From Takakia lepidozioides (Eukaryota > Plantae > Bryophyta): DNA of 64,000 bases. The stretch covers positions 14,260,001 through 14,324,000 of the forward strand of contig CM060732.1 in the NCBI GenBank assembly GCA_030704615.1. The letters run 5' to 3'. The notes beneath the pieces were generated by a model. That model was not told where the DNA came from. It ran no database searches and was given only the letters and a program-made list of their open reading frames with translations. Position numbers and translations under genes: made by a program. Shown in pieces: positions 3,688-61,992 of the stretch (position 1 is its first letter; every line of letters starts with the position of its first letter).

Positions 3688-3689
3688 CT

Positions 3690-3701: not shown

Positions 3702-3742
3702 TTAGAGTTCAGTACGCGATCGTCCTTGGGATTGGCCTCATC

Positions 3743-20393: not shown

Positions 20394-22202
20394 CTACGTG
20401 ACACGTTTCAGATGTGCATACAAGGACAACCTCTTCGCCACGGAGCTGCAGACAGCAAGAAGGAGCGTGGAGTTTACACATTAGGAGGGGGCGGGAAAAG
20501 CTGCAATGCGAATTGTGTATAGGTGAAGCCCAGCTCCCGTTGTATGCAAAAGTTGGGTTATGAGGTTTGCCTGGGAAATGCGGCACCGCATTAGCACTTT
20601 ATGTTTTCATAAATTGTGCTCACGCATGTTGACTGTCTTGCAGGTATATGTGATGGAAATACGTGTTACTTAAGACAGGGGCCCTGGCGCAAGAGCCCCC
20701 GTTCTTCATGGCTTGGACCGTGGCGGGCCCAAGCTGTGTCTACACACCAGAGATGCAGAAACAATGGCATGTCGCGCATCTCGTTGGATGCCCGTGGTAC
20801 CTGGACATGTCTGGCGGACTTGTTGACGAATCGGAGAAAGATTTGCACGCGAAAGCGGAGGAGAAGAGAAGGGAAAGACGTGTCCCTGCTCGGCCTGAGT
20901 CGGCAAATGACGCTGCTGCTCTGGAACAATCCAGAAAGGCAGCTGAGATGGCACAGAAGACGGTGGATGCAGCTGTGCAGGCTCAACAGAAGGGGTCAAA
21001 GAAGAGGACTCGCCAGCAAGGAGCAGCAGTTGTGACACCCAAGAAGACGAAGAAACAGAAACAGAAAGAGCAGGAAGAGGGTGAAGAAGAGGACTCCGAT
21101 GGAGACTTTGCAACCGGCCCACCCCCCGAAACGCAGTCAAAATCGCATGCGCCCACTGTTGTCACAAGGGATGAGAACAGGCTCAACAAATAAGGCACTC
21201 TTCAACCCCCCGGGGGGGGCACCCTTTCGAGCCGGTGGAAATGAAGAGGCCGAAAGTGGAGCCAGAAACAATAGTTCAGTGTGTGAATGAGAGTTTCTTG
21301 GCGGCTTTGGATGGACAGGCAGCCAAGTTGGCATACATGAAGACCATACAGGGTCTGAAGGGCAGAGCACTGAAGAAGGCGGCTGCCGAAGAGCCTTCCG
21401 ACACCCCTGGGTTTCTGAAGATGGTCTCGTTCTTTGCAAAGGTGTGTGCAAGGAAGGATTGCAGGAGGGGTGGAAAAGCCACCGAGTGGTCTTGCGATAT
21501 GATCATCTTGGATATTCCGGATGGAGAGCCTGTGGAAGGACTGCATGCTTTGCCGCCTTGGAACAGGTACTCCGAGGACTTTTGGAAGAAATGATTCGGG
21601 CTCGCCCGCATGGTGTTGGATGAGAGAGGCTATGTCGTTGTCCTTGCGAGCAGAGGCAAAAACACGGAGGCGGGAATTGCGAAGTGGACCCGCAAGAGTG
21701 CCGTCCCAATTCTGAAGAAGAAGTGGACGTGCATCAACACATTGGGCCTTTGGTCGGAAGGGAAGAAGGTAATTACCACATTGGCAATCGTCCTTTCATT
21801 TTGTTAGCTGTTTTGATATGTGGTGCCGCATTCGAATTCTAATCGTTCCCCACTGTGTATGCAGACGAAGTAGTTCGATGTATACTGCTTTGTGAAGGAG
21901 AACTCAACCTTTGCTTACCGGAAAGAGGATTGTTAGTTGACCGGAATTGCGACCCCATCGATTACAACCTCCTGTTCAACAACGTTCCCACGGAACTCCT
22001 CTCTCATAGTCTCACTTCAATGGATCCACTGCGGTATTCACGGACTTGGAGCCCTACCTTCATCAAGACAATTATGGAGGCATGCACTGACCTGGAGGAC
22101 AGAGTGTTGGACCTCATATGTGGAACAAGTATGCAGATTTTGGTATTATGCTGTTCTGCGAATTTTCATTATGTTCAAATTTTGCATTTCTGCTCAAGAT
22201 CT

Positions 22203-22620
22203 GGTTAGACCAAGTCTACTTAGGGAGTCCACTGGAGCGATAAGTGGTGCACTGTACCAGCATATTCCATCATTCAAATCTTCAATATCAAAAAATGAAA
22301 GCTTACCAATAGTGACTTGGCTTACACTACGTACCAGCATGTACCATCATTCAAATCAAGTAAGATGCTTGCTTACCAATAGTGACTGGGCCTGCAGTGG
22401 ACAAGCTTGAGCCTTGGAGCACCGTGTAAACAAAGAGGGGCACTTTTAGGGTTTCAAAGGAAATGAAGTTGGGTAGCTGGAGCTTGGAAGGGATTCAAGA
22501 CTTGGTATAGTTCCGTCTGCGGTGGATCATCTTCTTCGTTAGGATGAGGCGACGGGCAATCTCCATTGTAAACATTAGTTACCAAGGGCCAGGTTTTAAT
22601 GAGTAGATGCCATTCTAACG
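22203..22620. mobile_element. Small insertion in an intron, possibly an LTR remnant
   Basis: The homologous intron in family A is only 84 bp. Imperfect inverted ends GTTAGACCAAGTCTACT / AGTAGATGCCATTCTAAC and an internal duplication GCTTACCAATAGTGACT. Confidence 0.4.
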
Positions 22621-23539
22621 GGTGCCTCAATGTGGGCTGGGCGGTTTTCCGACCGGCACCTCTTTGCCTATGAGGAGGACACATCCGTCTGGGGATCCCA
22701 TCTGGAAGGGCTTCAACGGGAATGTGAAGGCTCCCATCGCATCCACAGATTCCTCAGAGGATTCGTCGGACTCGGAGGAAGAGACAGTGGACATTGATGC
22801 CGAGGAGAACCCGGAATACGAATGAGTGCAAACATTGTAAGTTTGCAAAGCCTTCTGGGTGATTTTTTCTCACATGCATTTCCGGATTGTGGTTCTCATT
22901 GGTCTGGTGAGTGATTGTTATGTGCAGGATTCCAAGATCCGGGTCGAAACCAGTGGCGCATACATTTCTTGCCAGGGAGAATGTCCCGTTCTTTGCGAGG
23001 ACCGACTTCATGAAGAGCCCAGTGAAGGACTACTCCCTTCCTAGTTATGCAGCTAAACTTGCAAAGACAGCGATTAGACGATGTGAGAATCCTAGTAAAG
23101 TAGAGCTGATTTTGGAGAGGGTTAGGGAGGACAGAAGGATACGGAAAGAGTTGGCAACAGCTGAGACAGGTAGACGGGTGCGGAAGTATGTATGTGATTC
23201 AACGGAAGAGAGCGATGTAGACAGGGAGGACGACGACCCAATGGAGGTGAGATGGTCAGTTCCGCAAGGGGAAGATGGGATTTTTGAAAGCCTGGCGAAC
23301 AACCAGTCCGCTAGACATGAGAAAGGCAATGAGGGGGTGGAAGGGGAGCAAGACAGTCAACGACAGGATGACGATAGTGATGATGATTTCCAAGATGGGT
23401 AGAATTTTAAATAACTCTTTGTACATTTACATTCTCTTCCAGAATATATAAAGGAATTTCTCCACGTTGTTGAGGTCCCCTCTCCCATGTGCTTCTAAAC
23501 ACCACTTCTCGACACCATCTGTGAAACCACGTCCTTCCC

Positions 23540-38460: not shown

Positions 38461-38462
38461 CT

Positions 38463-39603: not shown

Positions 39604-39604
39604 A

Positions 39605-40190: not shown

Positions 40191-40823
40191 GTTAATCAGG
40201 TCGCAAAAATGCAAGTGCGTGCTATCTTGGCACCATCTCCTCATCCATCTCACTCTACTGTCATCCTGCTGGCTTGTGCATGGATTGCGGTTCAATCCAT
40301 CCGCATCCTGATTGACTAGACCGGGTCAATGTGCCACCTAAAAGAGCAGCTCCACACATGCACCACTTGCTTGGTCAACTATCCACCACAAAGTTCAGAC
40401 TACCAAGAGCATGAATAGCCAAGCATTGCCTCCCTCTCGTCATATTACATAGTTAGGGTGAAGCTATGCATACATTGAATGATGATCTCCCTTCAAGGAT
40501 TTCCCACCATATGTTCTCCAAGCCCTTCCAATGCCCTATGCTTGGCTCCACACCACCATGACTGGAAGATTTCTTCACATGCTCCCTTTCAAAACCTCTT
40601 GAGCTTCTTAGTGCTCTCCAAGTGCTTGCCCTTGTTGTCTTCAAGCCCAAGCCTATGTAGCTCTTGGCTTCTCTTCCACAACATCCACACTTTGAACTTG
40701 CTTAACCCTAGATTGATAGTGAAATGAGCACTAACAATCCTTTAGTTACTCTCCACAAGCCATGGCACACACCATTGACTCTATAATGCATACAAAAGAT
40801 TCTCAAACGGGAAGGTCAGATTA

Positions 40824-43186: not shown

Positions 43187-44581
43187 TGCTGGAAGTCTGT
43201 CTGTTGGGATATCAGTCTGTTGCACTTGTGAATTTGTCAGTCTGTTGTGTCGGAAGTCTGTTGTACTAAGTCTGTTTGACTTCTTATTTTCCCTCCGGTC
43301 AGTCTTTTGGCTTGTTCTCCCACCAGTCTGGCGAAACGTCCGTATGCTGGATAGTTCTCCTCTATGGATATCAGTCTGTTGGACTGTGCATGCATCAGTC
43401 TGTTGTGCCGCGAGTCTGTTTGCAATGGGTGTGTTCGACTTTCCTGTTCTCCCCTTATTCTCTTTTGTCTTCATTCCGCTGGCAAGGAAGTGCCTCCAAT
43501 ATGAAGCCGCTTTGCCTCAGCAAAGCGAATAGTCTGCTGGACTCTCGGCCCGATGGGAAATGAGTCTGCTACACTTGCGAGGACCGTGGATGAATTTAGT
43601 ATGATGCGATCGTTCGGTGGACGTATTCAATGCGATGACGGCGGATAGTTGGCGCCTGTGAAATCGCGCCACGTTGGCAGTGCCATGCCCGCTTTCCCCC
43701 TTCTACTTCTACTTTCTTCTCATGTTCCCTGTGCGATCGACTCCATTCTCTTCGCGCCTGTTTCTTCGCACAGTTTTGCATTGTTTTGTTTTCCTCTTTG
43801 CGTTTCCATCACCGTAACGAAAGACGACCATTCTTCCCCAGGTGTGGAGAGTCGCGGTGAGCCGCGAAGCGTCGCAAACACGCTCGCCTTCGTAACAACT
43901 CGAAGTTCATCGGTTCGGTGAGGTTCTCACTTGCTGCGGTGTTTCCATTCCATTCTGTGTCCTCTTCTTGCTTAGGGTGAGTCTTTTCATAGGACTTCTA
44001 TCTGTCGTTCTGTCGCTCATTGTCCTTGCACCTTCGTTTCATTCTGCAGCGATGGAGGATGCTCGTGAAAAGGGTGCAGCGGACTGGGTGGATTTTGTGC
44101 ACCAAACCAGACTAAAGAAGGAGTGAAGGTACTGGTACTCACCAGACGAGTTTGATCATAAAATAGTGGAAGCATTTGTAGACCTCCGCGCCCGGAAGCC
44201 CAAAAACTCGAATTGGCAGAAGGACAAGCTCTTCTGTCCCTTCTGTGAAGAGGTAATCAAGGACAAAATCCAACTAAATCAGCATTGTGTTGACACGGGT
44301 TGCAAGGGGGGCTGCTATTTCATGAGCGGCATGAGCATGAGTGGAAAAAAAAAAAGCATGAGCAGACCATTGTGAGTCCACGGAAATAGGGTTAGGAGGC
44401 ACGGAAATAGGGTCATGTGAAGTTGGAATGTGGCACCAGTGGACTTGAAATGCAACATTTTATTGCAAATTTTGTGGCAAGCCACGTCTATACAAGTGTG
44501 TTCTAACTGTCATAGTCGGAATGGGCACTACTCTCCTACACCCTCCGAGGAACTTGCCCCACCTTCTTCCTCACCCCCCCC

Positions 44582-47500
44582 TCATCCCTCGTCCTCCGAG
44601 CTCTGTGATGCATCAGTTCCACTATGCCTCTCAAAAATCCCGTCCTCTCCTTGGGGGACTGTCCACCTCACCTCCTGGGAATCTTCTGCGTCTTCTCCCC
44701 CACTTTCCTCAGCAGAATCCAACACAAATCTACGAGCCTGACGGGCTCTAATAGCTGCTGCCTCCTCCCTCATCTTCATTTTCTTGAGGCTTGCCTTGTC
44801 TAAAATCTGCTGTACACGACTACGTTCGGAACACCTCCTAATGGACACCGAAGCAAGCCGGGCAACATAAGTAGGAAGGATGTACTCCCTTTCTGGACTA
44901 GGCATGAAATCCCCCCTGGCAAAAAAAGGCACGTTCCTCCTGCCCATGAACTCCGGTGTAGACGTCCCTTCGGCAGTACTTGGCATCCTACAGTAAGAAC
45001 AAATCCACTTCAAGAATGTCAATACCAGCACAACCAGAAAGGGTTTTCAATGAAATAAGAGAGCGGAGGGAGGTGCCTCACAAAATCTGGAGGCAACTTA
45101 CAATGCCACCACTCACTCGTAAACCGGGGGCTCCTCGGGCTCGATCCCAACTTCCTCCCCCTGCTCCTTCTCGGATTTTTCCTCATCCTCCGAGGATGCC
45201 TCTTCCTCTTTCGGCAGACGTTCAGCAGTTGCAAGTTCCGAGTTGTGGAGGGCAGTATCTGGCTCGAAGGCGAACACATGCCTGTCGGACAACGTCCCTG
45301 CCCACATTGAAGCACCTAAGGAACAAAGCGGGCGGTTAATAGCTTGCGGCATGCAATTACAATCGGGCCAGGGGACAAACTGAGCACGTGAAGGCTTACC
45401 CGTGCCGCATGTGAGATCCAGAATCCGCCCTTGGACATCCGAGCACGTCTCCATGAGGGTTTGGATGAAAGCAGGGCTCCGGGTCCGGCTGTACCGCCAC
45501 GGTTTGCCTGTCTTTGTGTCCTTCGGCATACTGGAGTGGGGCACATAGTTGTAGAGGACATCGTAGGTTACAGGGTCCATAGCGGCATCAACAAGACGAC
45601 CGTTGTTGCGGAATTTGAACGTAGACCCTCTCTTCACAAAGCAATATGCCTCAAACACCAATGTCTGCACATCCAACAAAGAAGGGATCAACTCCAGGGT
45701 CTACTTAACATACACCACAATATGAGGTGAATGCAAAAGATTGATAACTTACACTTTGGCCCTCTGTTCGCAACCCCTGCGTACTGATGCATAACCATTT
45801 TCTGAGGAGGACCGGGGTGACACTTTTCGGTGTCCACCTTGCCACCGCAGTCTCTGTGGTCTTCCCTCTCGGGCAAGGACAACCACACATCCACCGTCAT
45901 CCAGAAGCATCCCCGCCAGCCCAAACCTGGCTTTCCAGTAGTCCTCAGTAAACCTGTTCCAGGTGGGCACACCATCCAGGCCCTCCAGCAGCTCCCCATC
46001 TGGAATGTCGAGGAGAATCATGTCGCAAGCTCTCTCCACCTCAACCCCCCCCCGAGTGCTCTTGCAATTCGTGCTCACAGCCGTGAAGAATTCCATCATA
46101 GCTTCAAAACCAGGGGTGTCTTTAGGCTCTGTACCGCCAGCCCTCTTCTTGGCTTTCCCCTTCTGCTCTGCCAGAGACTTGTTGTGTGCCACCTTCTTCG
46201 CCCTGGCAGCGAGAGCGTCAAGGAAGCTCTCATTGACGCATTGGATGATGGTTGGAGGTTCTAGCTTTGGCCTGTGCGTAAACGTCACCGCCGAATACCG
46301 CCGTGTAGGCTCGCCCTCAAATGCCAACTTCTTGGCAGAGCCAGTCCCACTCCGAACTGACTTGGGAACCCGGACGACGGTGACTGGGTAGGAGCAACAG
46401 CAGTCGCAGGACCTTGAACAAAGTCGTCGTCCGAGTCACTCTCTTGGGTCCCCTCCTGCGCCTCCTCCGATGCCCCGATGGTTTTCTTCTTTTTGGGTGT
46501 TACTGCACTCACCTGTTTCCTTGTCCTTTTCCTTTGGCCTTTACTCTTCTCATGCAATTTCTCCTGAATTCCTGCCTGAGCAAGCTCTGCCGCTTTCCTG
46601 GAGTTCGCAAGCGCTTTTGCCTCTTTTGCACCCAACGGAGGCAGCGGAGCCCGGTTTTGTCGGAATTCAGCATCCAGCTTCAATTGAAACTCGGATGGGT
46701 CGAGCGAGCCGGGCGGAAGGTCCACATACCAAGGGCAATCACGCAAATGTTCCAGATGCCACTCCTTCACAATATCGTCAGTGTACATGGAGTCAGCCCC
46801 AGGGTTCCTCCATGCCAGGAAGAATGGTGGCTCGAAAGACAATGACCTTTCTCCAAAAGGGAGAACTTGCAGTACCTGCATTCATAAAAAACACAATGAG
46901 GTCCCTGAAATGCATATTCGGCACCATTTTCCCAGGTTGGGGCGGATGTGAGTGGGCCTAGAAATGGAAAAATGGCGCCGAATTTCGGTTTTCGGTGACT
47001 GCCACCCTAGGGACTTAGCCATCTTGGGAGCCCTGAAATGGAAATTCGGCGCCATTTTTCCCGGTTTGGCCCGAAGATGGCTGTCCCAGAACCGCAATAG
47101 GGCCTAGAACTGGAAAAATGGCGCCGAATTTCCAGTTCAGGTCCAGCCACCCTAGGGACTTAGCCCGAAAATGGCTAAGTCCCTGAACGGCAATAGGGCC
47201 TGGAACTGGAAAATGGCGCCGAATTTCCAGTTCAGGGCCAGCCAGCCTAGGGACTTAGCCCGAAAATGGCTAAGTCCCTGAACGGCAATAGGGCCTGGAA
47301 CTGGAAAATGGCGCCGAATTTCCAGTTCAGGGCCAGCCAGTCTAGGGACTTAGCCCGAAAATGGCTAAGTCCCTGAACGGCAATAGGGCCTCGAACTGGA
47401 AAATGGCGCCGAATTCCCAGTTCCGGGCCAGCCACCCTAGGGACTTAGCCCGAAAATGGCTAAGTCCCTGAACGGCAATAGGGCCTGGAACTGGAAAATG

Positions 47501-50390
47501 GCGCCGAATTTCCAGTTCAGGGCCAGCCAGTCTAGGGACTTAGCCCGAAAATGGCCAAGTCCCTGAACGGCAATAGGGCCTACAACTGGAAAATGGCGCC
47601 GAATTTCCAGTTCAGGGCCAGCCAGTCTAGGGACTTAGCCATTTTCGGAGCCCTGACTGGAAATTCGGCGCCATTTTCCCTAACACCACATGAGGCCTCT
47701 AACATCCTGAAATGCAAGGACTTGAAAGAAAGGCAGCGCGTATGTACCTGTACAGAAGGGGCATTGCTGCTTTGTCCGCGTTCGGCTGGTCGGTGAACTC
47801 GTGGCTCCGGCGAGCATCTGCTATCTCCCAAAGAATAGGTTGGTTTTGTAGAGCAGAAAGTACCTCGTCACATAGTCACGTAGGCTCTCTGCTGCAGGAG
47901 ATATCTCCATCTTGAACTGATGTGCTTGTGTGTCCAGCTGCTCTTGTGCATTCGTCGTCACCTGTGGAGATTCTCCATCAGATCGCTTTCATGAAAAAAT
48001 ACAATGAATCCACCCCTACTAGAGTAGAAGCCCCAAACGAAGCGTGGGGAAGTACCTGAAACCACCATGTCATGCGGTTCATCCACATGTCGAATGTGGG
48101 GTCAGAGAGTTTGTCCGGTTTGGGGAAGCTCCACATGTCCCTGGTACTTTGGGAACCATTCCAGATTTGGAGCCACCGGGTCTGTCCAACCACCCAGCAT
48201 ATTCGTAAGCGCCAAACACCACAAAAAGGAGTTGTTGCCACCACAATTTGGTTAAGAATGTATCACCTTTTCTGTTGCATCCACACAGGATGTGGCTAGA
48301 CGATGGAGCTTCTCCAATGTCATCGTGGGCTTCAGAGCGCGAGAGTAGTGCTTCCCCACCTCCACCAGAAAGTCGGCACCAAGGGCGAGATCAGCTATGG
48401 CCACGTACTTTACCATCCGCGACTTGTACTTTATGCGGGCCCTCACCTCCGCAGCTTTGACATACGATTCGAGTTCCGGGAGGGTTGGATTCTTCTCCTC
48501 TGACTCCATGTAGAACCTCCGCGCATGTGCCAAATCCTGCTGTATTTTCGTCTGTCAAGAATGCGCACATAAGATTAGAGATCCTGCTCAACACAATTAT
48601 TCTATTGGGGGAGGAGATTAGAAATCACGGTGAAGACCCTTTTTCTATTGGGGGAGGAGAGACAGATTAGCTCAACAAAACTGTCAGGAGCTTTACCCGA
48701 AATATGTAGTCCACCATGGCGTCGACGCTCAGCCTATACCAGGTTCTGTCTGCCTTTGCCTCCGACTTGCGCAGGAGGTCGGCACTGAGGGAATTGGCAA
48801 ACTCTTGCACCCCTGCTTCCCAACATCCTTCACTCGGAAGAGCATATGGGACAAGTTGGTGGCAATGAAGGCATTCTCAGTCACCCTGCAGTGCCACATT
48901 TCCATCAAACAATACTCAAATGGGAATTTCCATCATATATGAGGATTTGCAATGAAATGACTTCCAAATTCAAAGTCCAAAAGCGAGAGGGGTTGTAGCT
49001 TACGAGTTGATGTCGGCCATTGCAGCTTTGAGAAGACTGCGATCTTTGGGCCCCGCAACCTTCAGCACAACACAATCCACGGCGAAATGCCAATCGAGGT
49101 CGTTGGGGTGGGCTTGGGCAATGTACTCCATCCATGCCAGGAGGTGATGATTGCCGTCCCACACGTAGAACATCTTACCGGACAAGTGCTGGAAAAGAGG
49201 ATCACTAGCAATCAATCTCTCGAACTCCTCATTTTGCGTTTGCCAATGGGACCCCATTTGTCCACCTCATCGGAAGTGTGGGCACGGGAAGCTCCGTGGT
49301 CGTTCTCAATGGAAACGTAAAATGCGGCAGACCCCATTCGATATCCATCCCGGAAAGAGAATTTCAGCTTGTCGATATCGCCTAGGAGGGCAGGTCTCAC
49401 CACCTGCAATGACACCAAGCGACAAAGGGGAATTCGAAGCTTGGCCGGGTACACCATGCCCCCCAGCACCCTACCAATGTTGCTGTGGGTTGCCTCCAAC
49501 ATCTTGGCAGCGGCCAACTTCATATCCGCCTCAGACATGACGTCTGCTGCAGAGGGGTTTTCCGGCAGCCCAGCAGGACCGCCAAATCCAGCCTGTATGC
49601 TCCGGGTTTGGGGCCTGGGGATGTCCGGGAGGATGTCATCCTGGTCAGAAAGCTCCCTGTCGTCCTCCTCAACAGGGTCAGCCACCTGCAAAACCACCTC
49701 CAGCACTCTCCCCGTCTCTACTGCCCTCTCCCTGGCTTCACCTCGAACTCGCACAATCCGTGCTCTTTCTGGTGTTCTTTCCTCTCCTCCACTCTCCACC
49801 GTATGGGTAATTGCAGGGGCTGCTCTTGCCCGCGATGGTCTAACCAGTGTGTTACTGCCTCTCTGTGGTGTCTTGGAAGGATCCACCGTCTCTGTGCGTC
49901 CCTCACTTACATTGGCATCTGTCATTTGGGCACCCCTGGCCTCTTCAGCTGCCTTTTCTCTTTCCTCCTGGCTAGCATTCTATCTCATCTGTTCTTTTGC
50001 CCTCTCTTTTGCCCTCTCACGGGCTTTCTGTTTCTTAGTAGGGCTAGCAGCAGGGGAGCCCTCCAGGACGACCACCTTTGATTGAGGCGAACTGACACCC
50101 TCTCGCGCACTGCTCACTCCCCCCTCCGCAGCCCGTGACGGCTCTCTCGCCGATGATTGCATGTGCTTAGCTTTCTTCTTTTTCTTTGCGTGGGCGGGCC
50201 CTACTGCATGTGCATGAACAACCTCCATTGCCGGATCTGCTGTCCTCATGTCCTCACGCCCTTCACATGCCATGCCGCCTGCACCAACCTCCCCAATGCC
50301 TATTCTGTCGTACTCTCGTTGCAAGTCCTCCCGTCCACCAACAAAAGGTTTAAGTTTGCCCTCTCGCCCCAAGTTGGGCGATTCAAACAT
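44582..50390 (-). CDS. Multi-exon ParB-like / beta-class amino-methyltransferase-like fusion gene (several 1-bp frameshifts as assembled)
   Basis: RIPLCRL...VVRP...FYVWDGNHH (49144-49440); CDMILLDIPDG (about 45995-46027); RSPAFIQTLMETCSDVQGRILDLTCGT|G-ASMWAGTLSDRHVFAFEPD after splicing 45399-45316. GT-AG introns include 45752-45665 and one starting at 49003. Confidence 0.7.
46900..47680. repeat. 95-bp tandem array in a cargo-gene intron
   Basis: CAATAGGGCC recurs at 47095, 47191, 47286, 47381, 47476 and 47571. Each unit has two palindromes (AACTGGAAAATGGCGCCGAATTTCCAGTT and AGGGACTTAGCC..GGCTAAGTCCCT). Confidence 0.92.
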
Positions 50391-51179
50391 GCGATGAGTT
50401 GGAGCTATCGATGATACTACCAGCGTGCCGGGCTCGTCGTCACTCTGTCATTGACAAAAATCGTGAAAACCAACATCAGTGCAAAAACCAGCATCGCAAC
50501 CACCATAGCAACAATCGTGTAGCAAAAATGAAAACATAACAAGTTTAGGAAGTATGGAGAGCCATGCAACAACAATGAAAACAAATGCAACCATTGCCTG
50601 AGAATGACATGCACAAGCAGCCTTCTCCAGAGCTGCCGGATTTGCACACGCATTGCAAACAATCTAAGGTTCACTCAACTATCTAAAGTTCACTCATCCA
50701 GCGAAGCCAGGATGAAGATGCAAAAACAAAGCGAGGTAACAAAGCGAAAGCAAAAAAGAAATCGAACAAACCGAAAGCAGAAGTGGCTTGCCTGAGAGTA
50801 CTCGACTTCAGTTGGCGCGGGTTGTGAGCAAGACACTGGAATCTCCTGCTGGAGCTTCAGTTTGGCCATGCGAGAGATTGGCCGTCGTCCGTAGTACAGA
50901 GCTTTCAACTTCCGCCGCGGTCTGGATGTGAGGTCTCTCTCAGGAGAGCCACGCCCTTCAGGCGGCATAAGTCCCAGCCAAAAATATCTCATTTTTTTGG
51001 GTACATGCCTCGAATAGCATGTTAAGCCAACATTAGCATGAGATTTAGGGTACGTATCCAGGAAGCCATGCGTCGCCAGCCCGATGGAAAACCGACGGCG
51101 GTCGACATTTATTGCCCAACTGCGCAATTAAATGTCGGATGAAGACCTCCATGTCGGATGAAAATCGACGTAAAGAGGC

Positions 51180-53060
51180 CCGGAATTTCCAACGTAGAGG
51201 TAATTCGGAGCGTTGCACGATGGAATTCCGGCGCCGGATTTCCATCCTGCAGGTAATTCGGAGCGCAGCAGGATGGAAATTCAGCGCCGAATTTCCATCC
51301 AGCAAGGTAGGGCGGCGCTGGAAATTTCCCTCAAGCAGGTAATTCAGAAGCGGATGGATGGAAATCCGGCGCCGGATTTCCATCCGCGCAAGTAGGGCGG
51401 CGCGCCAAATTCCCCTCACGCAAGTAATTCAGAAGCGGATGGATGGAAATCCGGCGCCGGATTTCCATCCGCAAGGTTGGGCGGAGAGCGGATGGATGGA
51501 GATCCGGCGCCGAATTTCCATCCTGCATGTAATTCGAATCCCGGATGGATGGAAATCCGGCGCCGCATTTCCATCCAGCAGGTAAGTGGAATCCCGGATG
51601 GATGGAAATTCGGCGCCGGATTTCCGTCCAGCAGGTAAGTGGAATCCCGGATGGATGGAAATTCGGCGCCGAATTTCCATCCTGCGGGTAATTCTGATCT
51701 CAGAATTACCTTCCTGCAGGTAATTCTGATCGATGTATTACCTTCCTGCAGGTAATTCTCATCTCGGAATTACCTTCCTGCAGGTAATTCTGAGCGAGGA
51801 ATTACCTTCCTACCTTCATCGATAAGAATTACCTGCAGGAAGGTAATTCTCAGCGATGAAATACCTGGCGAATGGAATTTCGGCGCCGAATATCCATACG
51901 CCAGCGATCCGACTTACTTGCTGGATGGAAATTCGGCGCCGAATTTCCATCCATCCGGATTCGAATTACCTGCAGGATGGAAATGCGGCGCCGGATTTCG
52001 ATCCATCCGGGATTTCACTTACCTGCTGGATGGAAATCCATCCGGGATTCGAATTACCTGCAGGATGGAAATGCGGCGCCGGATTTCGATCCATCCGGGA
52101 TTTCACTTACCTGCTGGATGGAAATTCGGCGCCGAATTTCCATCCATCCGGGATTCCACTTACCTGCTGGATGGAAATTCGGCGCCGAATTTCCATCCAT
52201 CCGGGATTCGAATTACCTGCAGGATGGAAATGCGGCGCCGGATTTCGATCCATCCGGGATTTCACTTACCTGCTGGATGGAAATTCGGCGCCGAATTTCC
52301 ATCCATCCGGAATTCGAATTACCTGCAGGATGGAAATGCGGCGCCGGATTTCGATCCATCCGGGATTTCACTTACCTGCTGGATGGAAATTCGGCGCCGA
52401 ATTTCCATCCGGGGGATGGTCTCTGTCGGAGAGGTGCCGGCCTCTCCGCCGCTCTGTTGGATATTCGGTGCCGAATTTCCGTCCGACGGTTGAAATATGA
52501 CGGCCAGTTGCCGACCTCTCCCCCCTCCCCGACTGCATTGGAACGGCCCCGGATTGAAATTCGGTGCCGTTTTCCCATTTGGGGAGGTTTTTATGTCGGC
52601 CAGTTTTCGGTCTGACCCCCCGACAAGACTTCCTTTGGGGGGGCACGGATGGAAATTCGGCGCCGAATCTCCATCCAGGGGATGCTCTCTGTCGAACACG
52701 TGCCGACCTCTACGCCCGAGGCGACTTCATCCGGGCGTCCCCTGTTCGATATTCGGTGCCGAATTTCCGTCCGGGGGTTGAAATGTGACGGCCAAGTGGC
52801 GGCCTCTCCCCCCTCCCCGACTGCATCTGAACCGCCCCGGATGGAAATTCGGCGCCGTTTTTCCATCTGGGGATGTTTTTATGCCGGCCAGTTTTCGGCC
52901 TGACCCCCCGACACGACTTCCTTTGGGGGGCCCGGATGGAAATTCGGCGCCGAATCTCCATCCAGGGGATGTTCTCTGTCGCACACGCGCCGACCTCTGC
53001 GCCCGAGGCGACTTCATCCTGGCTTCCCCTGTTGGATATTGGGTGCCGAATTTCCATTCG
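51180..53060. repeat. Palindrome arrays between the divergent genes (~53-bp units and ~270-290-bp higher-order units)
   Basis: Dozens of GGATGGAAATTCGGCGCCGAATTTCCATCC variants, arranged as inverted arms around GAATTACC(TTCC)TGCAGGTAATTC units at about 51700-51850. Confidence 0.92.
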
Positions 53061-53439
53061 GGGGTAGTAATGTGACGGCACGGTGCCGGCTTCTCCCCTT
53101 CAGCCGTCATCATCCGGACGGCCCCCCACTTTCTGACTGCATACCGTTGGCAGTTATTGCGCAAAGACCAGGGGCCGCATTCCGGAGACAAGGTTCATTA
53201 ACACTCTGACTATGGATTTTTGAGATAGTTGGCTCCCTGGATTTGGATCAGGCTTCGTCGCTCGGACAAATCGGCATCGCATTCATTCCCATTGCTGCAT
53301 CCCCCTTCTACCAGGGAGCTTCCCCGCACGCCATCCTGGCAGTCTTGTGTGCACATCTCCCATGGCGGAAAACCCGAGCGTACTGCCCTCCTCACGAGCA
53401 TAGAGCTTCATTTCCGTGCAGAGGGGACACCTGCCGGGT

Positions 53440-56400
53440 GATGGAGAAATATCTGTGCGTTCGATACCACCTGAAACCGGGGTCGGTTTTTTTGGAGGAG
53501 GAAAGGAAGGACTCTAACGGCCTTGTTGTCGAGAGTATTGTTGTGCTCCACGATGATTTCGGCGATGGCAGGGAATGGCGAGTTCCACCATCGGACAACG
53601 TCATATACAGGGCTGTTGGGGACTTCATTTGCCCGCCAAATGCACCTTCTATCCTGGCGCCTTCCACGAAACAATCCGCGAATCAGAGAGTGGCTACCTC
53701 AAAGAGAGAAGTCCGCAACGAAGTAAATCCAGAGCCGAACCCATCCATGAAGACGAGCAAGAACCGGGTTGTTCACAACCTGTCCGACTCAGACAAGGTC
53801 ATGGAAGTTCCGAGGTCGTCCTGGAGATCAGGCAAGTCCTCAATGGACGTCAGTGGAGGAGGGAGTCATATTCCCAGCACGAGCACCGCAGTTCGATCTA
53901 TTCTTGAAATTTTGCGAGGGCTTCACCTGGAGGGACACCGGTCGGAGCTGGCCGGGCTGGACTACAGCAAGTTCGCAATTAAATCGGTTACATGCCTTCC
54001 CGCCGACGTCGACGGTAATATCTTCTTTGAGTTCCCTCCTCGGGCGGACTACTCGAGGGCGTCGGAATGTTGACAGATATGGATAGAAAACATGACGGTC
54101 ATCCTTGGTGCGTTACCAAAACCACCAGCATGAAGATGCTCGATGGTGTGCGGGTGCACTATGTTGTTTGTGCGGGCGCGTTGCGGTGTTTCTCCCCAAC
54201 TTGCTTCCACTTTAAATCCAGAGGTCACAGGAACGAGACCGATTGGACAGGCACAGCTCATCAACCATTTCGAGCTCAGGAGAAGGTTCCGAACTCCACA
54301 TTTAAGTGTGCGCATTGCAAAGAACCACCACACTGCATGTCTGTTTGTAATGCCAAGCAGTTCTATGTGTTGCACCGTTTCCCTGACCTCACCCGAGCTT
54401 GCATACACGTTGGTTCCCATTGTCACAAATTGGCGAGGGGGAACTCGCGGGAGGCTGCCCACGAAGCAGAGCAGCTCGTTCAGGAGGAGGTTAAGTTGAG
54501 ACCGGGTGCCAAACCCAAACAGATACAGCTCCAAGCCGCCCATAAGATGGCATTGGCCAGAATTATGTCGGAAGACGGCTCCGATAGAGTTCCTCTCGAC
54601 GAGAAGGAAATGGAGGCATTGCTGGAGTCGGTGTCCCACGTATGTTCACCGAATGTCCGAAACCACATTGTCTCATGCAAACAGAAAATTGGGCGTGGCT
54701 CGGATATGCACTCCATTCTGGAGGTGAAGCGACGATGTGGATATGACTACATTCATGGAAGTAGGTTTCCAGGACAAGGGACTGAGGCAGATCGTTGTTT
54801 CGTATTCAAAATGTCCACGTGTGGACCTGGCAGCGGCGTCGAACTGGTCGACAGGATGACGAGTGGGAACTTGTCAAACAGTTGGGTCATGTTCGACCAT
54901 ATCAAGCGAATTACAAATCACCAGTGGGTGACAATGGGTGCACATGTCTACGACACCCACTGCAGGATGCTAATGACAATTGCTATTTGTGAGATGAAAG
55001 GAGAGGACACACAATCGGAGATGCTTCTTTGGCAGGGAATAAACGAACAGATGGCCAAGGCGGGATTGCCCCCTCCGAATTTCCGTGGTTTCATGGCGGA
55101 CAACGCACAAGCAAATTGGGCTGCCATCCGAAGGGTGTATGGGCAAGACCCCAATGTTCCCATGGAAGGCAAGGAGAGATCTTGTGGGTTCCATTTTCTG
55201 CAGAGCCTTTCGCAGTACACAACCAGGCTCGTGGCGCCAGATTTCAGAGAGGAGCACCGTTCCATGTGCCTTGCGTGGAAGCGCGCTCCCACCTTGGATG
55301 ATGCAGAGACACAGTTTGCATGCATACGGGCTTGGTGGACATCGTCAGGTGCTGTAAGGAAATCAGACGAGGGAGCAATGGTCAGTTGGCTAGCATGGTG
55401 GCATTATCGTTTCCTCCAGTTCGGCGACTATATGCGGGAGGTGAGTTGCACGAATTCGCGTCCCGTTGAATATTATTCTTGGCCATATTTGTAACTTGCT
55501 TGTAACCTGAACATGTGCTTGTGCAGGAAATGTGTCTCGACTCCGACACCGACATGCCCACGACAAACATGGCCGAATCAGTGCACTCTTCCTGGCGTGC
55601 CTCCTCTGCAGCGCATCTGGTGGACATCCTCACTGCCACAACGGAGGACATTGTGAGGTCAATTATGCAGCAATGCAGGTACAACGAGTTCTTGAAAGGG
55701 AAACAGTGGGGCTTGGGGCGGGACAGGCAGGAAATGCTGATGCGGACTGCCTCTAGATCGAAGAATCCTCGGAAGTGGGCGGCGGCCTTGCGAGAGGGCC
55801 TTCGGGACACGCCATTGCTGCGAAGAGGCCAACATTTGGAAGGAGATGTTCATACCCGTCCGGTGAGACGAAGACTTGACGAGGCACCTGGCGGAGAAGA
55901 GGATTCATGGCGAGCTGACAAGAATATTCGCACGCTCCCTCGTGGTCCGGTGATGTTGCCCGAGGAGGTCTCGTCGAGCACCGCAAGTCCTGCACGTTCA
56001 AGATCGCCATCTCCTTTGAGCACAGGGCGCGTGCCCCGGCAACATAATGAGCCATCTGTAGTAAAGCAGTACAACATTCCTATTGTGGAGGCAAGAGTGT
56101 CGGAGTCACAGTGGAGAATTGCAAGGACATTGCCGGCATTTCGAGGGAAGTGTTGCGCCATCCGGGTGGATACGAGAGCACGCTGTGGTGAGATGATTCG
56201 GAGGATCCCACACGGTGCTATACCTGCACCTTGTTTCAGCGGCAGATTTTTGACTCCCACATTTGCTCACGCCACAACTCAGACATTTTGGTTGTGTAGG
56301 CACGACATAATGACCTGTGTATTTGGCAAGCCCAAGTACGGGATTCAGCGAATGCCGGAGCCTCCGGGCGTCTGGCCTGTTGCACCGGGTTGCAGCCTCT

Positions 56401-56945
56401 CTCAGAATGAGGCGGATGCTCTATCTGCAGCAGGATTTCGAATGGTGCAACGCACAGACATCCCGGCCCATGCATTTCCGGTTCCTCAGACCCAGCCATT
56501 GCAGACTGCTCGGTCCAGTAGAGACGGATTGGACAATTTTGCACATCCCACAATGCAATTCGGAAGAGTGAAGAGACGACACCCTCCCAACAAGTTGAAT
56601 GAGACTCGGATTGCCAATGCTCTTGGGATGACTTGCACTATTCAGAGCTCCGTGGACGTACCCCCACCCGGCCTTGGGCGTGTGTATCGGATGGCAACGG
56701 CCGGCTCGGCTGTACGCGACGATGTATACACAATTACGATTGGAGTAGAACCGACTTGCAATTGTACGGACTTCTCGTTGATGGAAGCAAAGAAGGGTTC
56801 GAAGTATTATCCGTGCAAGCATCTGTATTACATTTACCTGAAGAGGTTGAGGATGAACGTGACTATTGATGACTTTATTCATGCACCGGCGTTGAGCGTG
56901 AACGAGCTGCACAAACTCCTCCTTAGGGATTCCAGAAATCATTGA
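53440..56945 (+). CDS. MULE transposase with GCM/WRKY-like zinc region, DDE core and SWIM finger (intron 55441-55526; 1-bp frameshift at about 54060)
   Basis: CAGALRC...CAHC...HVGSHCH; VMFDHIKR; FMADNA; CGFH; TNMAESVH; PTCNCTDF...PCKHLYY. GAG|GTGAGT donor and GCAG|GAA acceptor. Confidence 0.92.
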
Positions 56946-57099
56946 TGGGGCAAAGGGAATCCTCCATATGGATATTTTCAAATGCATTTTGCTGTATCAG
57001 ACTTTTTTTTGCAGTGTAATGAAATGCACCCCAAAACTCCTGGAATGAGGCAATATTCCATTCAAACTGAGATCCAACAGAAGCAGTTGTGGGCCATTT

Positions 57100-57610
57100 C
57101 TGGAAAAATGGCGCCGAATTTCTTTTTTTGGGGCCGAAAACTGGCTAAGTCCCAACATGCACTGGTACCTGTGTCTGGGAAAATGGCGCCGAATTTCTCT
57201 TTTTGGGGCCGAAAACTGGCTAAGCCCCAACATGCACTGGTACCTGTGTCTGGGAAAATGGCGCCGAATTTCTCTTTTTGGGGCCGAAAACTGGCTAAGC
57301 CCCAACATGCACTGGTACCGTGTCTGGAAAAATGGCGCCGAATTTCTCTTTTTTGGGCCGAAAACTGGCTAAGTCCCAACATGCACTGGTACAGTGTCTG
57401 GAAAATGGCGCCGAATTTCCCTATTTTGCGCCGAAAACTGGCTAAGTCCGAACATGCACTGGAAAAATGGCGCCGAATTACCTGTCATGAGGGGACCTAT
57501 AGCCGCGGAATTCGGCACCATTTTTCGCCAGAGAGACCTATTACCGCGAAATACGTCGCCGTTTTTTCAGGTTACGGACCCTATTACCGCGAAATTCGGC
57601 GCCATATTTG
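57100..57610. repeat. ~74-75-bp subterminal tandem repeats with GGCGCC core
   Basis: TGGCGCCGAATT at 57109, 57184, 57259, 57333, 57406 and 57468. Confidence 0.9.
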
Positions 57611-57851
57611 CACATGTCGCTGGGAATTGGCATGAGCGGAAGACGAAATATCATGAGCACAACTGTCAAAACTGCAATTTTCCCTTCAAGGGGCCGAATA
57701 ATATATTTGTTTTTCCTGACACACTGCATTAAATTATTATTTTTTATTGTTTTTTATTTTCGAAATTTGTACTTCTGCTCATGAAAACCGATTGTCTTAC
57801 TACTCTGCTCATGCCGCTCATGCCGCTCATGCTCATGAAATAGCAAACCTC

Positions 57852-60800
57852 GTTGCAAGGAGACTGTTGCAATGATTCCACAGGATTTCAAGCCTTGACC
57901 GATACTGAAAGAAATGTTGATTGTCAAAGAGACCACAATGCACTTGCGCGGATCAGTGCTTGACCCCCGCACTTTGGAATTAGACGAAGTGCGCGCACGG
58001 TATGGTGTCCATTGTGGTGGCCCGTCAATGGAGGATTTGCAAGTGCAGGGAACGCCGGACGCTCCCAGAAAACGTAAATTGAGTGATGGGGCCCAAAAAA
58101 AGGAGAGGCAAAAAAAGAAGAAGGCCGCAAGGTCTGCTCGCGAGGTAAGGGCAAAATCCACACAACAGACTGAACCCCGTCCTGGGCGGCAGACCCACAC
58201 CATCAGCACTGATACTGAAAGTGAATCTACTCAGGGCCTAGAAGGGGTGACAAGTCCAGTGGACATTGACTTGCCTGACCAGACTCGGCAGCAGACTCAC
58301 ACAAATATCGCGACCCATGCCATCGGTTTAGGGTCAAAACCAAAAACTCAATAGAGCACTGAAGGGCCAGTCTGCCCTGGCACATTGCGCCTCGTTGACT
58401 TTGGGCTTTTCCCACCAGAGTGCCCACCAATTGGGGATCCAGACTTCTTCCGTTATTTCTACAGAGTTGCCCAGTCAGGTCTGCTACGCACATTCATCCG
58501 ACAGGCGGAACAGAAGTGGTTGAACAGCTTTGAAGATGAAGATGACGATGATGAAGTAGAGGAGGTAATGGTCAGTCTGACCGCCCAGTCTGTTCTCTGT
58601 GCTGTTTGAGTCCATCATCGGGGTCACGTTGCCTATTCAGTCTGGTCAGTCCGCTGCGTTCTCTCCTCAGTCCGCTGGCTCACTCCGCTCGTCAGTTAGT
58701 CTGTTTTATATCGCTGCATTATTTACTGAGTCCGTTTGTCAGTCCGCTGGTCCAGTCCACTGGTATAGTCTACTGGTATAGTCTACTAGTTGCCTCCACC
58801 CTATGTACGCACGTTACAGTCTGCTAGTCTGTGAGTCCAGTCCGCTGCATGAGGTGAATATAGAGTCCACGTCCATGTTCCTGACGTCCAAGTTCTCTGT
58901 TGTGTACCAGGATGAACGTGTTTCTATTCGTAGGGCCATTCAGGCTTGGCGGATACCTAGCAATGATGCTCCTTTACAAGCGACTGCAGTGCATGCGGAA
59001 GTGGACCACGTGCGAGAGTACATATTATTGAAGTATCCTGGGTCATTTGCTGCTATAGCGGTATTACATATTCAAGACGCGTTGGGGGGGAATGCGTCTG
59101 AGACAGCCGAGTCTGCCATCCAGCAGACTCCCATTTAGTAGGCCGTCATCCAGTAGACTTCCGTTCAGCAGCCTGTCATCCAGCAGACTCCAACGGAGCA
59201 GACTCCCAACGAGCAGCCTGTCATCCTGCAGACTCCTCTCCAGGAGCCCATCATGCAGCCCATGCCAATGGGAAGTCCTGTCATCCAACAGACTGCGGAC
59301 CAGCAGACTGCCTTTCTCTCACATAGCACGGCGCTTTTAGCAGTTTGGCGATCGCCATCACCGGTAATTCGACCCGGAGCTAAAGACCTCACACTTCCCC
59401 GGCTTAGGGTGGGAGAAATTAATCCCCATTTGGATTGGCATAATGAGCTCCACCGGATTGTTGCAGACCGCCGGTGGTCATTTGTACCCTTTCATTATTC
59501 CATGGAGTTTTCTATTGAGAAAGCCAACCATGTTCTAGAAGCCGCCTCTGCTGTTGCCATTGAAGCCACAAACGACCAAAATGCGTCGCCTCTACTTGTG
59601 CAGCTGATTCTCATGGATGACCCACGGCCTGAAGACCTCAGACATATGCCTATGGCACATCCAACCTTTGGGTGCGAAGAAAGCACTTGTTCGGACTGAC
59701 TGAGGAGGACTTTGAGCGCATGGCAGCTTCCTTCCTACAACACAGATGGATGCAATTTGGCAATTTCCGCTCATACAACAAGTTGATGAAGGATCTGCAT
59801 AGTTTGAGGATGGACTTACTCCATGGAACAGACCATTCACAGAAGTTTGTGGTGGATCACGCATTGCACTGGTTTGCATTGGTGATGGAGCGAGCAGTAT
59901 TCGACATTGTTTTGCAGAATCCCAATGTCTTCAAAGTCCTGTGGTGTGGGATCTCAACTGAAGACCGCATCGGCGCCATTGCTCATCTCGATGGAGCATG
60001 GCTGTGCCGGCAAATCAAGGACATTGGCCTCATTGGAAATCTCTTGGAACCAGACTGCCCCTCAGCAAACTGTACAGCAGACCGTGCAGCAGACCGACGA
60101 ATCCAGCCAGCAGATTGCCCCTCAGCAGACTGTGCAGCACACTGGCGAACCCACTCAGTAGATGGCCGAGCAGACTATCCAGGAGACTAACAGCCAGTCT
60201 GTTTCCTGGATTGTGCAACAGACTCGGATGCACTGGCCTCACCGGGACCCTGTGGACGAATTTCTGCTGAGTTCCAACAACATGTTTTTGGATCTGCCAG
60301 TATGAGTGTTTTGACCGAGTCCACTTTTCCCCCAGGCACATTCACTGACGACATCATCAGGTCACCGGTAAAGCATTCTTATCCAGCTCCCCGTGGCCTG
60401 CCTTCTATGACCTTCCAGCTTAGTCCCGTTTTCGTGCGCTCAGTGGCGAAAGCCATAGATGAGTCTTACGTGATGACCGAACTCAATTTGGGAACACAAA
60501 ACTGTATCATAGATCTTACAGAAGAGTCTAAGGAAGCAATTGCCGGTGGGTCTTCCATACATGTTCTTGATGTTTCCCAAGTCCATGGAGATCCGAACAC
60601 CCAGCCGGCTGTCCACCAGACTGACCAGCACACTGAACAGTGGACACATGGAAGGACTGCCGAGCAACCTGTGGCGGGGCAGCATACTGTCTTCATTGAT
60701 GAGCAGACTGAACTGCAGACTAACCAGCAGACTGCACAGGTCACAGATGGAAGGACTGACCAGGATGGCTCGGAGCGGCAGACTGCACAGCTCAGCTCTG

Positions 60801-61990: not shown

Positions 61991-61992
61991 CC

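What the first reader, a model, noticed from the sequence alone, without database searches (positions are those of the whole stretch)
45113..46330. Beta-class N4C/N6A methyltransferase signature with an atypical DIPD catalytic motif
Seen: after splicing, the order is CDMILLDIPDG ... LLDDGGCVVV ... RSPAFIQTLMETCSDVQGRILDLTCGTGASMWAGTLSDRHVFAFEPD. Known: this parallels beta-class MTases (DLIxxDPPY ... LKxxGxxxx ... KPxxLxxxLIxxxSxxGDxVLDPFxGSGTTxxAAxxxGRxxxGxExD), with motif IV before motif I. The SAM-binding motif is split by an 84-bp intron, so the gene is well adapted to a eukaryotic host. Motif IV reads DIPD in both diverged families instead of (D/N/S)PP(Y/F/W), and also differs from the SPPY of described eukaryotic 4mC enzymes (bdelloid N4CMT, Marchantia DN4MT1). 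Inference: altered chemistry, or a catalytically dead DNA-binding/reader domain under selection.
Basis: partly seen in the sequence, partly recalled or inferred. Interest (0 to 1): 0.88.

Follow-up and report, generated by a model that had tools for sequence, protein, structure and literature searches.

The report
Plant transposon's altered-site DNA methyltransferase
This is a broken copy of a spliced passenger gene inside a 13.5-kb cut-and-paste transposon, likely of a non-seed land plant, whose protein ends in a bacterial-type DNA-methyltransferase fold lacking one usual active-site residue, as do most of its liverwort, moss, clubmoss and fern relatives, and it likely binds and likely marks palindromes repeated in its own element.

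Summary
The motifs, DIPD in both window copies and the 84-bp intron are real. It lies back to back with a SWIM-bearing transposase inside a 13.5-kb element with terminal inverted repeats, an 8-bp target duplication and 40 copies of a 22-bp palindrome. Homologues occur in Riccia, Ceratodon, Diphasiastrum and Adiantum; a fern member folds as a beta-class amino-methyltransferase (Z 21 to CcrM). DIPD is one state of a family-wide D-x-P-[T/D/N/S/E] motif: Asp/Asn is kept in 47 of 47, the base-stacking aromatic is absent in 43 of 47 and returns (DLPF/DLPY) in one nested subclade. SAM-binding residues are kept and the domain is under purifying selection. Most likely an accessory protein that binds, and probably still methylates, its own element; a non-catalytic binder is almost as likely. 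ParB-plus-methyltransferase passengers are already described in algal transposons; the altered active site in land plants is the new part. No activity was tested.

The parts
44307..44345 (+). left terminal inverted repeat of the element
   Evidence: matches the right end in register and five other termini in the window
57807..57851 (-). right terminal inverted repeat
44299..44306 (+). 8-bp target-site duplication, left copy (9 bp if the left end is read one base further in)
   Evidence: identical to 57852-57859
57852..57859 (+). 8-bp target-site duplication, right copy
44582..44987 (-). predicted last exon of the accessory gene
   Evidence: in-frame GT-AG intron 44988-45116, same layout in copy B, 47% identical there, weak collinear match to the C-terminal tail of fern proteins; no RNA joint seen
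45117..45315 (-). exon: end of motif I, motif II (FAFEPD), acidic linker
45316..45399 (-). 84-bp intron inside motif I
   Evidence: GT-AG; spliced in one X8 contig, joint absent from X1 and X2
45400..45664 (-). exon: target-recognition region, R-S-P (matching K-P of HPTxKP), start of motif I (ILDLTCGT)
45665..45752 (-).
   Evidence: spliced in one X8 contig
45753..46875 (-). large exon: CPWY block, linker, motif III region, motif IV DIPD (46009-45998), conserved W, motif VI; 1-base deletions in this copy at 45871, 46377 and 46841
46876..47747 (-). 872-bp intron holding a 95-bp tandem array of the 22-bp palindrome
   Evidence: one 1179-nt X8 contig joins 46878 to 47744-47807; array
47748..48885 (-). 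four middle exons (helical region); intron 47962-48055 seen spliced in one X10 contig of a diverged copy, three others predicted from GT-AG ends; 1-base deletions at 47829 and 48809
   Evidence: homology to fern proteins here is weak (only exon 2a scored above all 200 shuffles)
49004..50450 (-). first exon: low-complexity N-terminus, then DUF3723-like, likely ParB/Srx-type domain with FYVWDGNHH (49003-49499); frameshift at 49247, stop at 49980
   Evidence: 36-39% identical to fern N-terminal domains; fern domain scores 0.95 to DUF3723 clusters; ParB identity not confirmed
51100..53100 (.). 53-, 85- and 96-bp tandem arrays built on the 22-bp palindrome, between the two divergent genes
53210..56945 (+). 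broken transposase gene (DDE-type with C-x-x-H by eye, C-terminal SWIM finger), likely Mutator-like
   Evidence: SWIM 20.7 bits, above Pfam cut-off 19.6; no Pfam MULE hit; alignment of three window copies
57099..57480 (.). 75-bp subterminal array with the same palindrome
20640..23400 (+). copy B: diverged subfamily of the same gene (DIPD at 21511; stop at 21592), with its own palindrome variant at 20574 and 23546-24145

Best explanation
The stretch is the methyltransferase-fold end of a broken, spliced accessory gene inside a 13.5-kb DNA transposon; intact relatives are predicted to make a protein that likely binds the element's own 22-bp palindromes and likely still transfers a methyl group from SAM to a DNA base there, using an altered active site. 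Shown: the element, its ends, the gene layout, splicing of four introns in RNA-type contigs, the fold of a fern homologue, the family-wide motif pattern, purifying selection between subfamilies, and palindromes that differ by subfamily. Inferred: (1) the N-terminal DUF3723-like, likely ParB-type domain (or the methyltransferase's own recognition loop) loads on the palindromes; (2) the kept Asp, the main-chain carbonyl of residue 2 and the kept SAM pocket still support amino-methylation, adenine being more likely than cytosine because position 1 is Asp, not Ser; base stacking would have to come from another residue or the enzyme is slow; (3) the mark or the bound protein keeps the element's promoters and ends accessible against host 5mC silencing.
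For: Fold: AlphaFold model of fern homologue P0018 matches CcrM (Foldseek E 4e-12; Z 21.1, rmsd 3.5, 233 aligned), the top 20 rows all being beta-class DNA amino-methyltransferases or their annotated putative relatives. Family profile hits M1.HpyAVI at E 1.5e-7 and phage DPPY enzymes at probability 97%, DLPT on DPPY. Residues kept (rows covering each site): D/N at motif IV-1 47 of 47, Pro at IV-3 43 of 47, acidic end of motif I strand 17 of 17, second Gly 15 of 17, acidic motif II 15 of 16, K/R at the HPTxKP Lys 16 of 18. An aromatic is present at position 4 in a subclade (DLPF 4 of 47; also P0055 DLPF and P0058 DLPY) that is nested among non-aromatic members (support 97/95/98/86/99), which suggests a base still sits in the pocket. 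pN/pS between copies A and B is 0.37 (95% 0.30-0.44, 260 codons, pS near saturation). In RlmJ a Trp outside motif IV takes the place of the motif IV Tyr (PMC3814359, passages). Context: TIRs and TSD; 81 palindrome copies against 0 in 5 shuffles, 40 inside the element; all 13 copies near copy B or the transposase at 4842-9390 have G/C at positions 7/16, none of the other 70 do.
Against: The aromatic that stacks the flipped base (PMC3874165, PMC10406627, PMC8287941, passages) is missing in 43 of 47 members, and no single residue replaces it (T 28, D 9, N 3, S 2, E 1). The conserved Trp 14 residues downstream (51 of 52) aligns with a Trp that CcrM also has, so it is not a new compensating residue. 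H-P-T of HPTxKP is lost and FxGxG is degenerate. Most rows that cover motif I and II are close Adiantum paralogues, so those counts are not independent. Methyltransferase folds with disrupted motifs are known to be inactive (METTL14 EPPL; DIRS1 domains called likely inactive in PMC4738411), and retrotransposon DAM domains did not raise 6mA in E. coli (10.64898/2026.05.21.726589, passage). 17 of 83 palindromes carry C-to-T type changes at the central CG, as expected from host 5mC, so protection is at best partial. Among near-identical copies most listed changes are non-synonymous (24 of 29 coding changes outside the diverged-subfamily rows; 40 of 75 differences were shown), i.e. inserted copies decay. 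The ParB identity was not confirmed. The window's own protein was not folded. No activity or binding was tested.
Confidence: 0.42

Rival explanations
1. The protein is a non-catalytic, SAM-binding DNA binder: it loads on the palindromes and shields or opens the element, like VANC of Arabidopsis VANDAL elements, and the methyltransferase fold serves only for recognition, base flipping or dimerisation.
For: Aromatic absent in 43 of 47 and position 4 variable; the motif IV Asp also binds SAM (METTL3 D395, RlmJ D164), so its conservation does not prove catalysis; subfamily-specific motifs in tandem arrays in introns, intergenic and terminal regions match the VANC layout (PMC5735166, passages).
Against: SAM-pocket residues, Asp and the Lys/Arg partner are all kept across liverworts to ferns, whereas METTL14 lost both the D/N and cofactor binding; F/Y reappears in one nested subclade.
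Confidence: 0.35
2. The domain is an active methyltransferase for another acceptor (RNA, such as the element's transcript, or a protein side chain), and the changed fourth residue reflects a different substrate.
For: SAM pocket kept while the DNA base-stacking residue is lost; MT-A70 RNA enzymes share the fold (Z 13-14); several eukaryotic captures of this fold are thought to have moved to RNA (PMC4738411 section 8).
Against: DNA enzymes score clearly higher (Z 16-21) than MT-A70 enzymes; RNA amino-methyltransferases also use the aromatic; fusion to a likely DNA-binding domain and DNA palindrome arrays point to DNA.
Confidence: 0.1
3. The protein acts in transposition itself (pairing or loading of ends through the palindrome arrays, like a second transposition protein), not in epigenetic marking.
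For: One array is subterminal (57099-57480) and the gene stays with the transposase inside one element.
Against: Most palindromes are internal (32 of 40 from 47701 on, mostly between the two genes; 8 around the 872-bp intron) and none lies near the left end; the same kind of gene travels with unrelated transposases in algae.
Confidence: 0.1
4. DIPD is only decay in a dead copy, or the motif likeness is chance.
For: Both window copies are broken; the window exons alone hit nothing relevant in Pfam or PDB.
Against: DIPD is unchanged in an in-frame RNA-type contig (X10 record 12, 45798-46021, only differences 45850, 45928 and the base at 45871), in the diverged copy B, and D-x-P-non-aromatic is the family norm; fold and profile tests are decisive.
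Confidence: 0.03

Closest known systems
Accessory gene of Sola1-1_Ec32 in Ectocarpus (PMC12477816; passages read, supplements not seen)
   Same: About 1100-aa protein with a ParB-like domain and a predicted N4C/N6A methyltransferase, on the strand opposite the transposase of a large DNA transposon; proposed to bind and modify its own element; similar proteins noted in green and red algae.
   Different: Here a land-plant lineage, a SWIM-bearing likely Mutator-type transposase with an 8-bp TSD, and a motif IV without the aromatic. The passages read give no catalytic motif for the algal protein, and its sequence was not compared.
Red-algal Plavaka accessory genes PAG2 (PF01555 + SET) and PAG3 (ParB-like + 2OG oxygenase) (10.1101/2025.02.11.637652; passages read)
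   Same: Transposon-borne prokaryote-type methylase, ParB-like domain and tandem arrays of inverted repeats proposed as its binding sites.
   Different: There ParB and methylase are in separate proteins; here they are fused, with no SET or oxygenase domain seen.
Beta-class DNA amino-methyltransferases: CcrM, M.BceJIV, M.MboIIA, M.PvuII, M.RsrI, M1.HpyAVI; phage ParB_N + N6_N4_Mtase fusions
   Same: Fold and motif order; 4 of 6 phage methylases fetched have ParB_N plus PF01555 in the same order.
   Different: All six phage proteins aligned have D-P-P-Y or its equivalent where aligned and HPTxKP; this family has D-x-P-[T/D/N/S/E] mostly, 11-16% identity to solved structures, introns and about 500 extra residues between the domains.
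Bdelloid N4CMT and Marchantia DN4MT1a/b (PMC8885841, PMC10406627, 10.1101/2021.02.12.428880; passages read)
   Same: Bacterial-type beta-class enzymes with introns in a eukaryote; N4CMT fold matches (Z 19.1).
   Different: Those are host genes with SPPY and shown 4mC activity; this is transposon cargo with Asp at position 1. No SPPY protein was among the 32 profile hits; DN4MT1 sequence was not compared directly.
VANC anti-silencing proteins of Arabidopsis VANDAL elements (PMC5735166; passages read)
   Same: Second gene in a DNA transposon with family-specific short motifs multiplied as tandem repeats in introns, intergenic and terminal regions.
   Different: No sequence relation tested or expected; VANC has no methyltransferase fold in the passages read; binding and anti-silencing are shown for VANC and only inferred here.

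Membership tests
Beta-class DNA amino-methyltransferase (PF01555) | SAM-dependent fold with motif IV N-terminal to motif I | tested here: met
   Fern homologue P0018 model: Z 21.1, rmsd 3.5, 233 aligned to CcrM; profile alignments. The window's own protein was not folded; its exons align collinearly with the family.
Beta-class DNA amino-methyltransferase (PF01555) | Catalytic motif (D/N/S)-P-P-(Y/F/W) | tested here: not met
   DIPD here; D/N 47 of 47, Pro at position 2 0 of 47, Pro at position 3 43 of 47, aromatic at position 4 4 of 47.
Beta-class DNA amino-methyltransferase (PF01555) | SAM-binding motif I (acidic, FxGxG) and acidic motif II | tested here: met
   Acidic 17 of 17, Gly 15 of 17, motif II acidic 15 of 16; the Phe is kept only in P0037. 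Met in degenerate form.
Beta-class DNA amino-methyltransferase (PF01555) | Passes the Pfam cut-off for N6_N4_Mtase | tested here: inconclusive
   1 of 45 stored homologues scanned passes (P0037, 29.8 bits); P0014 and P0035 hit below cut-off; window exons do not hit.
Beta-class DNA amino-methyltransferase (PF01555) | Methyl transfer to N6-adenine or N4-cytosine | not testable with these tools
   No assay or modification data.
Transposon ParB-like + N4C/N6A methyltransferase accessory proteins (Sola1-1_Ec32 type) | Second gene inside a TIR/TSD-bounded DNA transposon, opposite strand to the transposase | tested here: met
   44307-57851, TIRs and 8-bp TSD.
Transposon ParB-like + N4C/N6A methyltransferase accessory proteins (Sola1-1_Ec32 type) | N-terminal ParB-like domain | tested here: inconclusive
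   (D/E)GN(H/N)x motif seen by eye (ParB/Srx likeness recalled); Atlas features match DUF3723 at 0.95; no Pfam ParB hit; hhalign against four phage ParB domains at noise level with very shallow profiles; the fold job failed (pLDDT 36).
Transposon ParB-like + N4C/N6A methyltransferase accessory proteins (Sola1-1_Ec32 type) | Sequence homology to the algal proteins | not tested
   Algal sequences were not fetched.
Mutator-like (MULE) DNA transposon | DDE transposase with C-x-x-H and SWIM finger | tested here: inconclusive
   SWIM passes Pfam cut-off; D...D...CxxH order read by eye against a recalled MULE pattern; no Pfam MULE or KDZ hit.
Mutator-like (MULE) DNA transposon | TIRs and a TSD of about 9 bp (range recalled as 8-11) | tested here: inconclusive
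   TIRs present; TSD 8 bp by register of seven termini, 9 bp if the left end is shifted by one base. An 8-bp TSD also fits other superfamilies (recalled).
Eukaryotic 4mC enzymes (N4CMT, DN4MT1) | SPPY motif | tested here: not met
   Ser at position 1 in 0 of 47.

The most novel reading that the evidence does not exclude
A clade of transposon-encoded enzymes spread through liverworts, mosses, clubmosses and ferns that methylates DNA amino groups without the motif IV aromatic, writes 6mA (or 4mC) on subfamily-specific palindromes of its own element, and so gives these transposons a private epigenetic mark that opposes host 5mC silencing; one fern subclade has regained the aromatic.
Probability: 0.3. 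Interest if true: 0.85.

Novelty: new variant of a known kind. Interest (0 to 1): 0.52.

Why it matters
If active, it would be an exception to the near-universal (D/N/S)PP(Y/F/W) rule and a defined source of 6mA or 4mC in land-plant genomes, placed on known sites, so the question of whether such marks exist in plants becomes testable at the arrays. If inactive, it is a long-lived pseudo-methyltransferase used by transposons as a sequence-specific anti-silencing factor. The natural series DIPD/DLPT versus DLPF/DLPY within one family gives a ready comparison. The overall design is already in print for algae and recurs in this scan, which lowers the surprise.

Tried and rejected
No whole genome is held, so copy number and linkage could be studied only in the window and through contigs. 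Single window exons found nothing in the word-indexed protein search (0 of 187 candidates), PDB sequences or Pfam. Locus searches found no relative in metagenome contigs or viral contigs; three alignments were too variable to search with. The fold of the N-terminal half failed (pLDDT 36) and its Foldseek search is meaningless. hhalign of the N-terminal domain against phage ParB domains was no better than reversed and transposase controls; with profiles of 4-5 sequences this says nothing either way. The transposase hit nothing in plasmids. No listed run is on record as RNA; X8 and X10 are guesses, supported only by GT-AG joints. Summed contig depth was not used as copy number. Parts without RNA-type cover were not read as unexpressed. 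Rejected: DIPD as a specific conserved signature (6 of 47); the downstream Trp as a compensating novelty (CcrM has it); stop at 45113 as the true end (it lies in a predicted intron conserved in copy B). First tree run failed and was redone; its deep nodes are unsupported (35-53), so no origin or transfer order is claimed. The Cell version of the Marchantia paper is not held. Paper searches that found no description of this land-plant motif; these also missed the Ectocarpus paper, so they are weak, and no supplements were read.
Full report
Observation. The detailed read-out shows that this copy is not one reading frame after removing the 84-bp intron: a second intron and a frameshift lie between motif VI and motif I, and copy B has a stop at 21592. 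Contigs of public runs settle the gene model. One 770-nt contig of run X8 (guessed RNA) skips 45316-45399 and 45665-45752, both GT-AG on the minus strand, joints with depth 0 in DNA runs X1 and X2; it and a contig of run X10 (another study) carry the base missing at 45871, and RNA-type contigs also carry those missing at 46377 and 46841. So the family has an open, spliced frame and the window copy is damaged, by mutation or assembly error. X10 record 12 spans the DIPD codons and differs from the window only at 45850, 45928 and 45871, so DIPD is present in an in-frame copy.

The gene is much longer than the finding. An X8 contig joins 46878 to 47744-47807 across an 872-bp intron that holds the 95-bp array, an X10 contig skips 47962-48055, and other contigs carry bases missing in the window at 47829, 48809 and 49247. 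Upstream exons end in a domain with FYVWDGNHH at 49003-49499. Downstream, a GT-AG intron at 44988-45116 leads in frame to an exon conserved in copy B and weakly similar to the tail of fern proteins; no RNA joint covers it.

Family. A profile of the two window copies found 32 proteins at E up to 0.001 among 1.84 billion. Of 29 looked up, 11 carry a species name: Riccia sorocarpa, Ceratodon purpureus, Diphasiastrum complanatum, Adiantum nelumboides and A. capillus-veneris, all hypothetical proteins; the host of the window is therefore likely a non-seed land plant (inference). Longer fern members have the same order of parts as the window gene, and window pieces align along them, 36-39% identical in the N-terminal domain. 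Whether the fern genes lie in transposons was not tested.

Fold. A 40-row family profile hits M1.HpyAVI (E 1.5e-7), CcrM and M.RsrI, with D-l-P-t on CcrM's D-P-P-Y; profile-profile comparison with six phage methylases gives probability 97%, E 1.2e-10; ESM features of the domain point to PF01555 clusters. The AlphaFold model of fern member P0018 (mean pLDDT 77, mostly above 85 in the domain) matches CcrM at E 4e-12 and Z 21.1, rmsd 3.5 over 233 residues, with M.BceJIV, M.MboIIA, N4CMT, M.PvuII and M.RsrI next and MT-A70 enzymes at Z 13-15. The N-terminal domain scores 0.95 against fungal DUF3723 clusters, a conserved cargo gene of Starship elements (10.1101/2021.12.13.472469, passages); its ParB likeness rests on a recalled motif and on the algal precedent, since folding and profile tests were uninformative.

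The motif. Of 55 rows (53 stored proteins and two window copies), 47 cover motif IV: position 1 D 45, N 2; position 2 L 18, I 15, F 6, V 4, others 4; position 3 P 43; position 4 T 28, D 9, F 4, N 3, S 2, E 1; at 70% non-redundancy (30 rows) T 14, D 7, N 3, F 3, S 2, E 1. Four proteins fetched later and not counted read DLPF, DLPT, DLPY and DCPN. [quoted passage not shown] DIPD keeps the first two roles possible and loses the third. SAM-pocket positions are kept: 17 of 17, 15 of 17 and 15 of 16, and K/R at the HPTxKP Lys in 16 of 18, though most of these rows are close fern paralogues. In a tree of 30 family rows and 4 phage rows on 123 columns with motif IV left out, the three DLPF rows are nested among DLPS, DFPT and DLPT rows with support 86-99, while deep nodes are unsupported; the simplest reading is regain of the aromatic. 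Between copies A and B the domain has pS 0.79 and pN 0.29 over 260 codons, so the ancestors of both were under purifying selection; among near-identical copies changes look neutral, as expected for inserted transposon copies.

Context. The gene lies inside an element from 44307 to 57851 (13,545 bp) whose ends are inverted repeats shared with five other termini in the window and flanked by an 8-bp duplication. A broken transposase with a SWIM finger runs the other way; Mutator-like is likely but not confirmed by Pfam. A perfect 22-bp palindrome with a GGCGCC core occurs 81 times within five mismatches against 0 in five shuffles, 40 times inside the element, in the large intron, between the two genes and near the right end. 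Copy B and the related transposase at 4842-9390 have a variant changed on both arms (13 of 13; 0 of the other 70). This rests on two subfamilies in one window. 17 of 83 copies show C-to-T type changes at the central CG, as host 5mC would give.

Mechanism. The most likely reading is an accessory protein that recognises its own element through the palindromes and still uses SAM to methylate a base there (0.42), with a non-catalytic VANC-like binder close behind (0.35). For catalysis speak the kept Asp, Lys/Arg and SAM pocket across the land-plant lineages sampled, the nested DLPF/DLPY clade, and RlmJ, where another aromatic replaces the motif IV Tyr. Against speak the drift at position 4, the lack of a new conserved aromatic, and inactive precedents (PMC4738411 passages and section 8; PMC8287941 passages). 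APPA mutants used as dead controls change positions 1 and 4 together (PMC7736820, PMC8885841; passages), so they do not decide the case.

Prior art. Earlier notes of this scan (unchecked AI notes) pointed to papers that my own searches had missed. Ectocarpus Sola1-1_Ec32 carries a 1104-aa ParB-like plus N4C/N6A methyltransferase gene opposite its transposase, with similar proteins noted in green and red algae (PMC12477816, passages); red-algal Plavaka elements carry a PF01555 gene, a ParB-like gene and inverted-repeat arrays (10.1101/2025.02.11.637652, passages). Retrotransposons with C5 or adenine methyltransferases are also described (PMC5890265, 10.64898/2026.05.21.726589; passages). PMC12344493 (passages) lists the known bacterial-type captures. 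I saw passages only, apart from one section of PMC4738411, and no supplements; alignments there could show the algal motif. The design is thus known; the land-plant clade with an aromatic-less motif IV was not found described in searches, which are weak evidence.

Verdict. Real feature, new variant of a known kind, interest 0.52; most novel reading (active enzyme without the aromatic, writing a private mark) probability 0.3, interest 0.85.

Noticed in passing
window 24395-25249 (-) and 36989-37609 (-): Two copies, 49% identical, of an unknown Cys/Trp-rich ORF with no Pfam hit; one starts 250 bases inside a terminus of the same transposon type (36699), the other follows copy B's palindrome array. 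Possibly a further cargo gene.
   Followed up: no
window 38442-39604 (+): A 94-99% identical fragment of the accessory gene's middle (47807 to 46498, including the 95-bp array) fused directly to a third, more distant transposase at 39600-40325 (-).
   Followed up: partly
window 1-2204 and 4842-7501: Inverted duplication of a related transposase end (91-96% identical), termini facing away from a Gag-bearing stretch at 3677-4570.
   Followed up: no
window 44050-44306 and 57860-58354: The element interrupts an ORF (a CxxC zinc-finger-like piece on the left) of an older element that continues to a SWIM-bearing transposase-like gene at 61815-63931.
   Followed up: partly
window 22128-22620: The intron in motif I of copy B is about 490 bp rather than 84 bp and lacks a clean acceptor, suggesting an insertion.
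   Followed up: no
window 26342-27410 and 35432-36529: 92.6% identical direct repeats, likely LTRs, with 10-bp tandem arrays around a decayed Gag-bearing retroelement that is strongly CpG-depleted (obs/exp 0.32 against 0.79 in the DNA element).
   Followed up: no
window 50620-50661: A 41-base stretch upstream of the accessory gene matches many short contigs at very high depth in the RNA-type runs X8 and X10 with unrelated flanks; probably a piece shared with another abundant sequence.
   Followed up: no
P0058, P0055, P0020, P0021, P0023, P0026: Subclade of the family (named members from Adiantum) with DLPF or DLPY, the natural candidates for an active control.
   Followed up: partly
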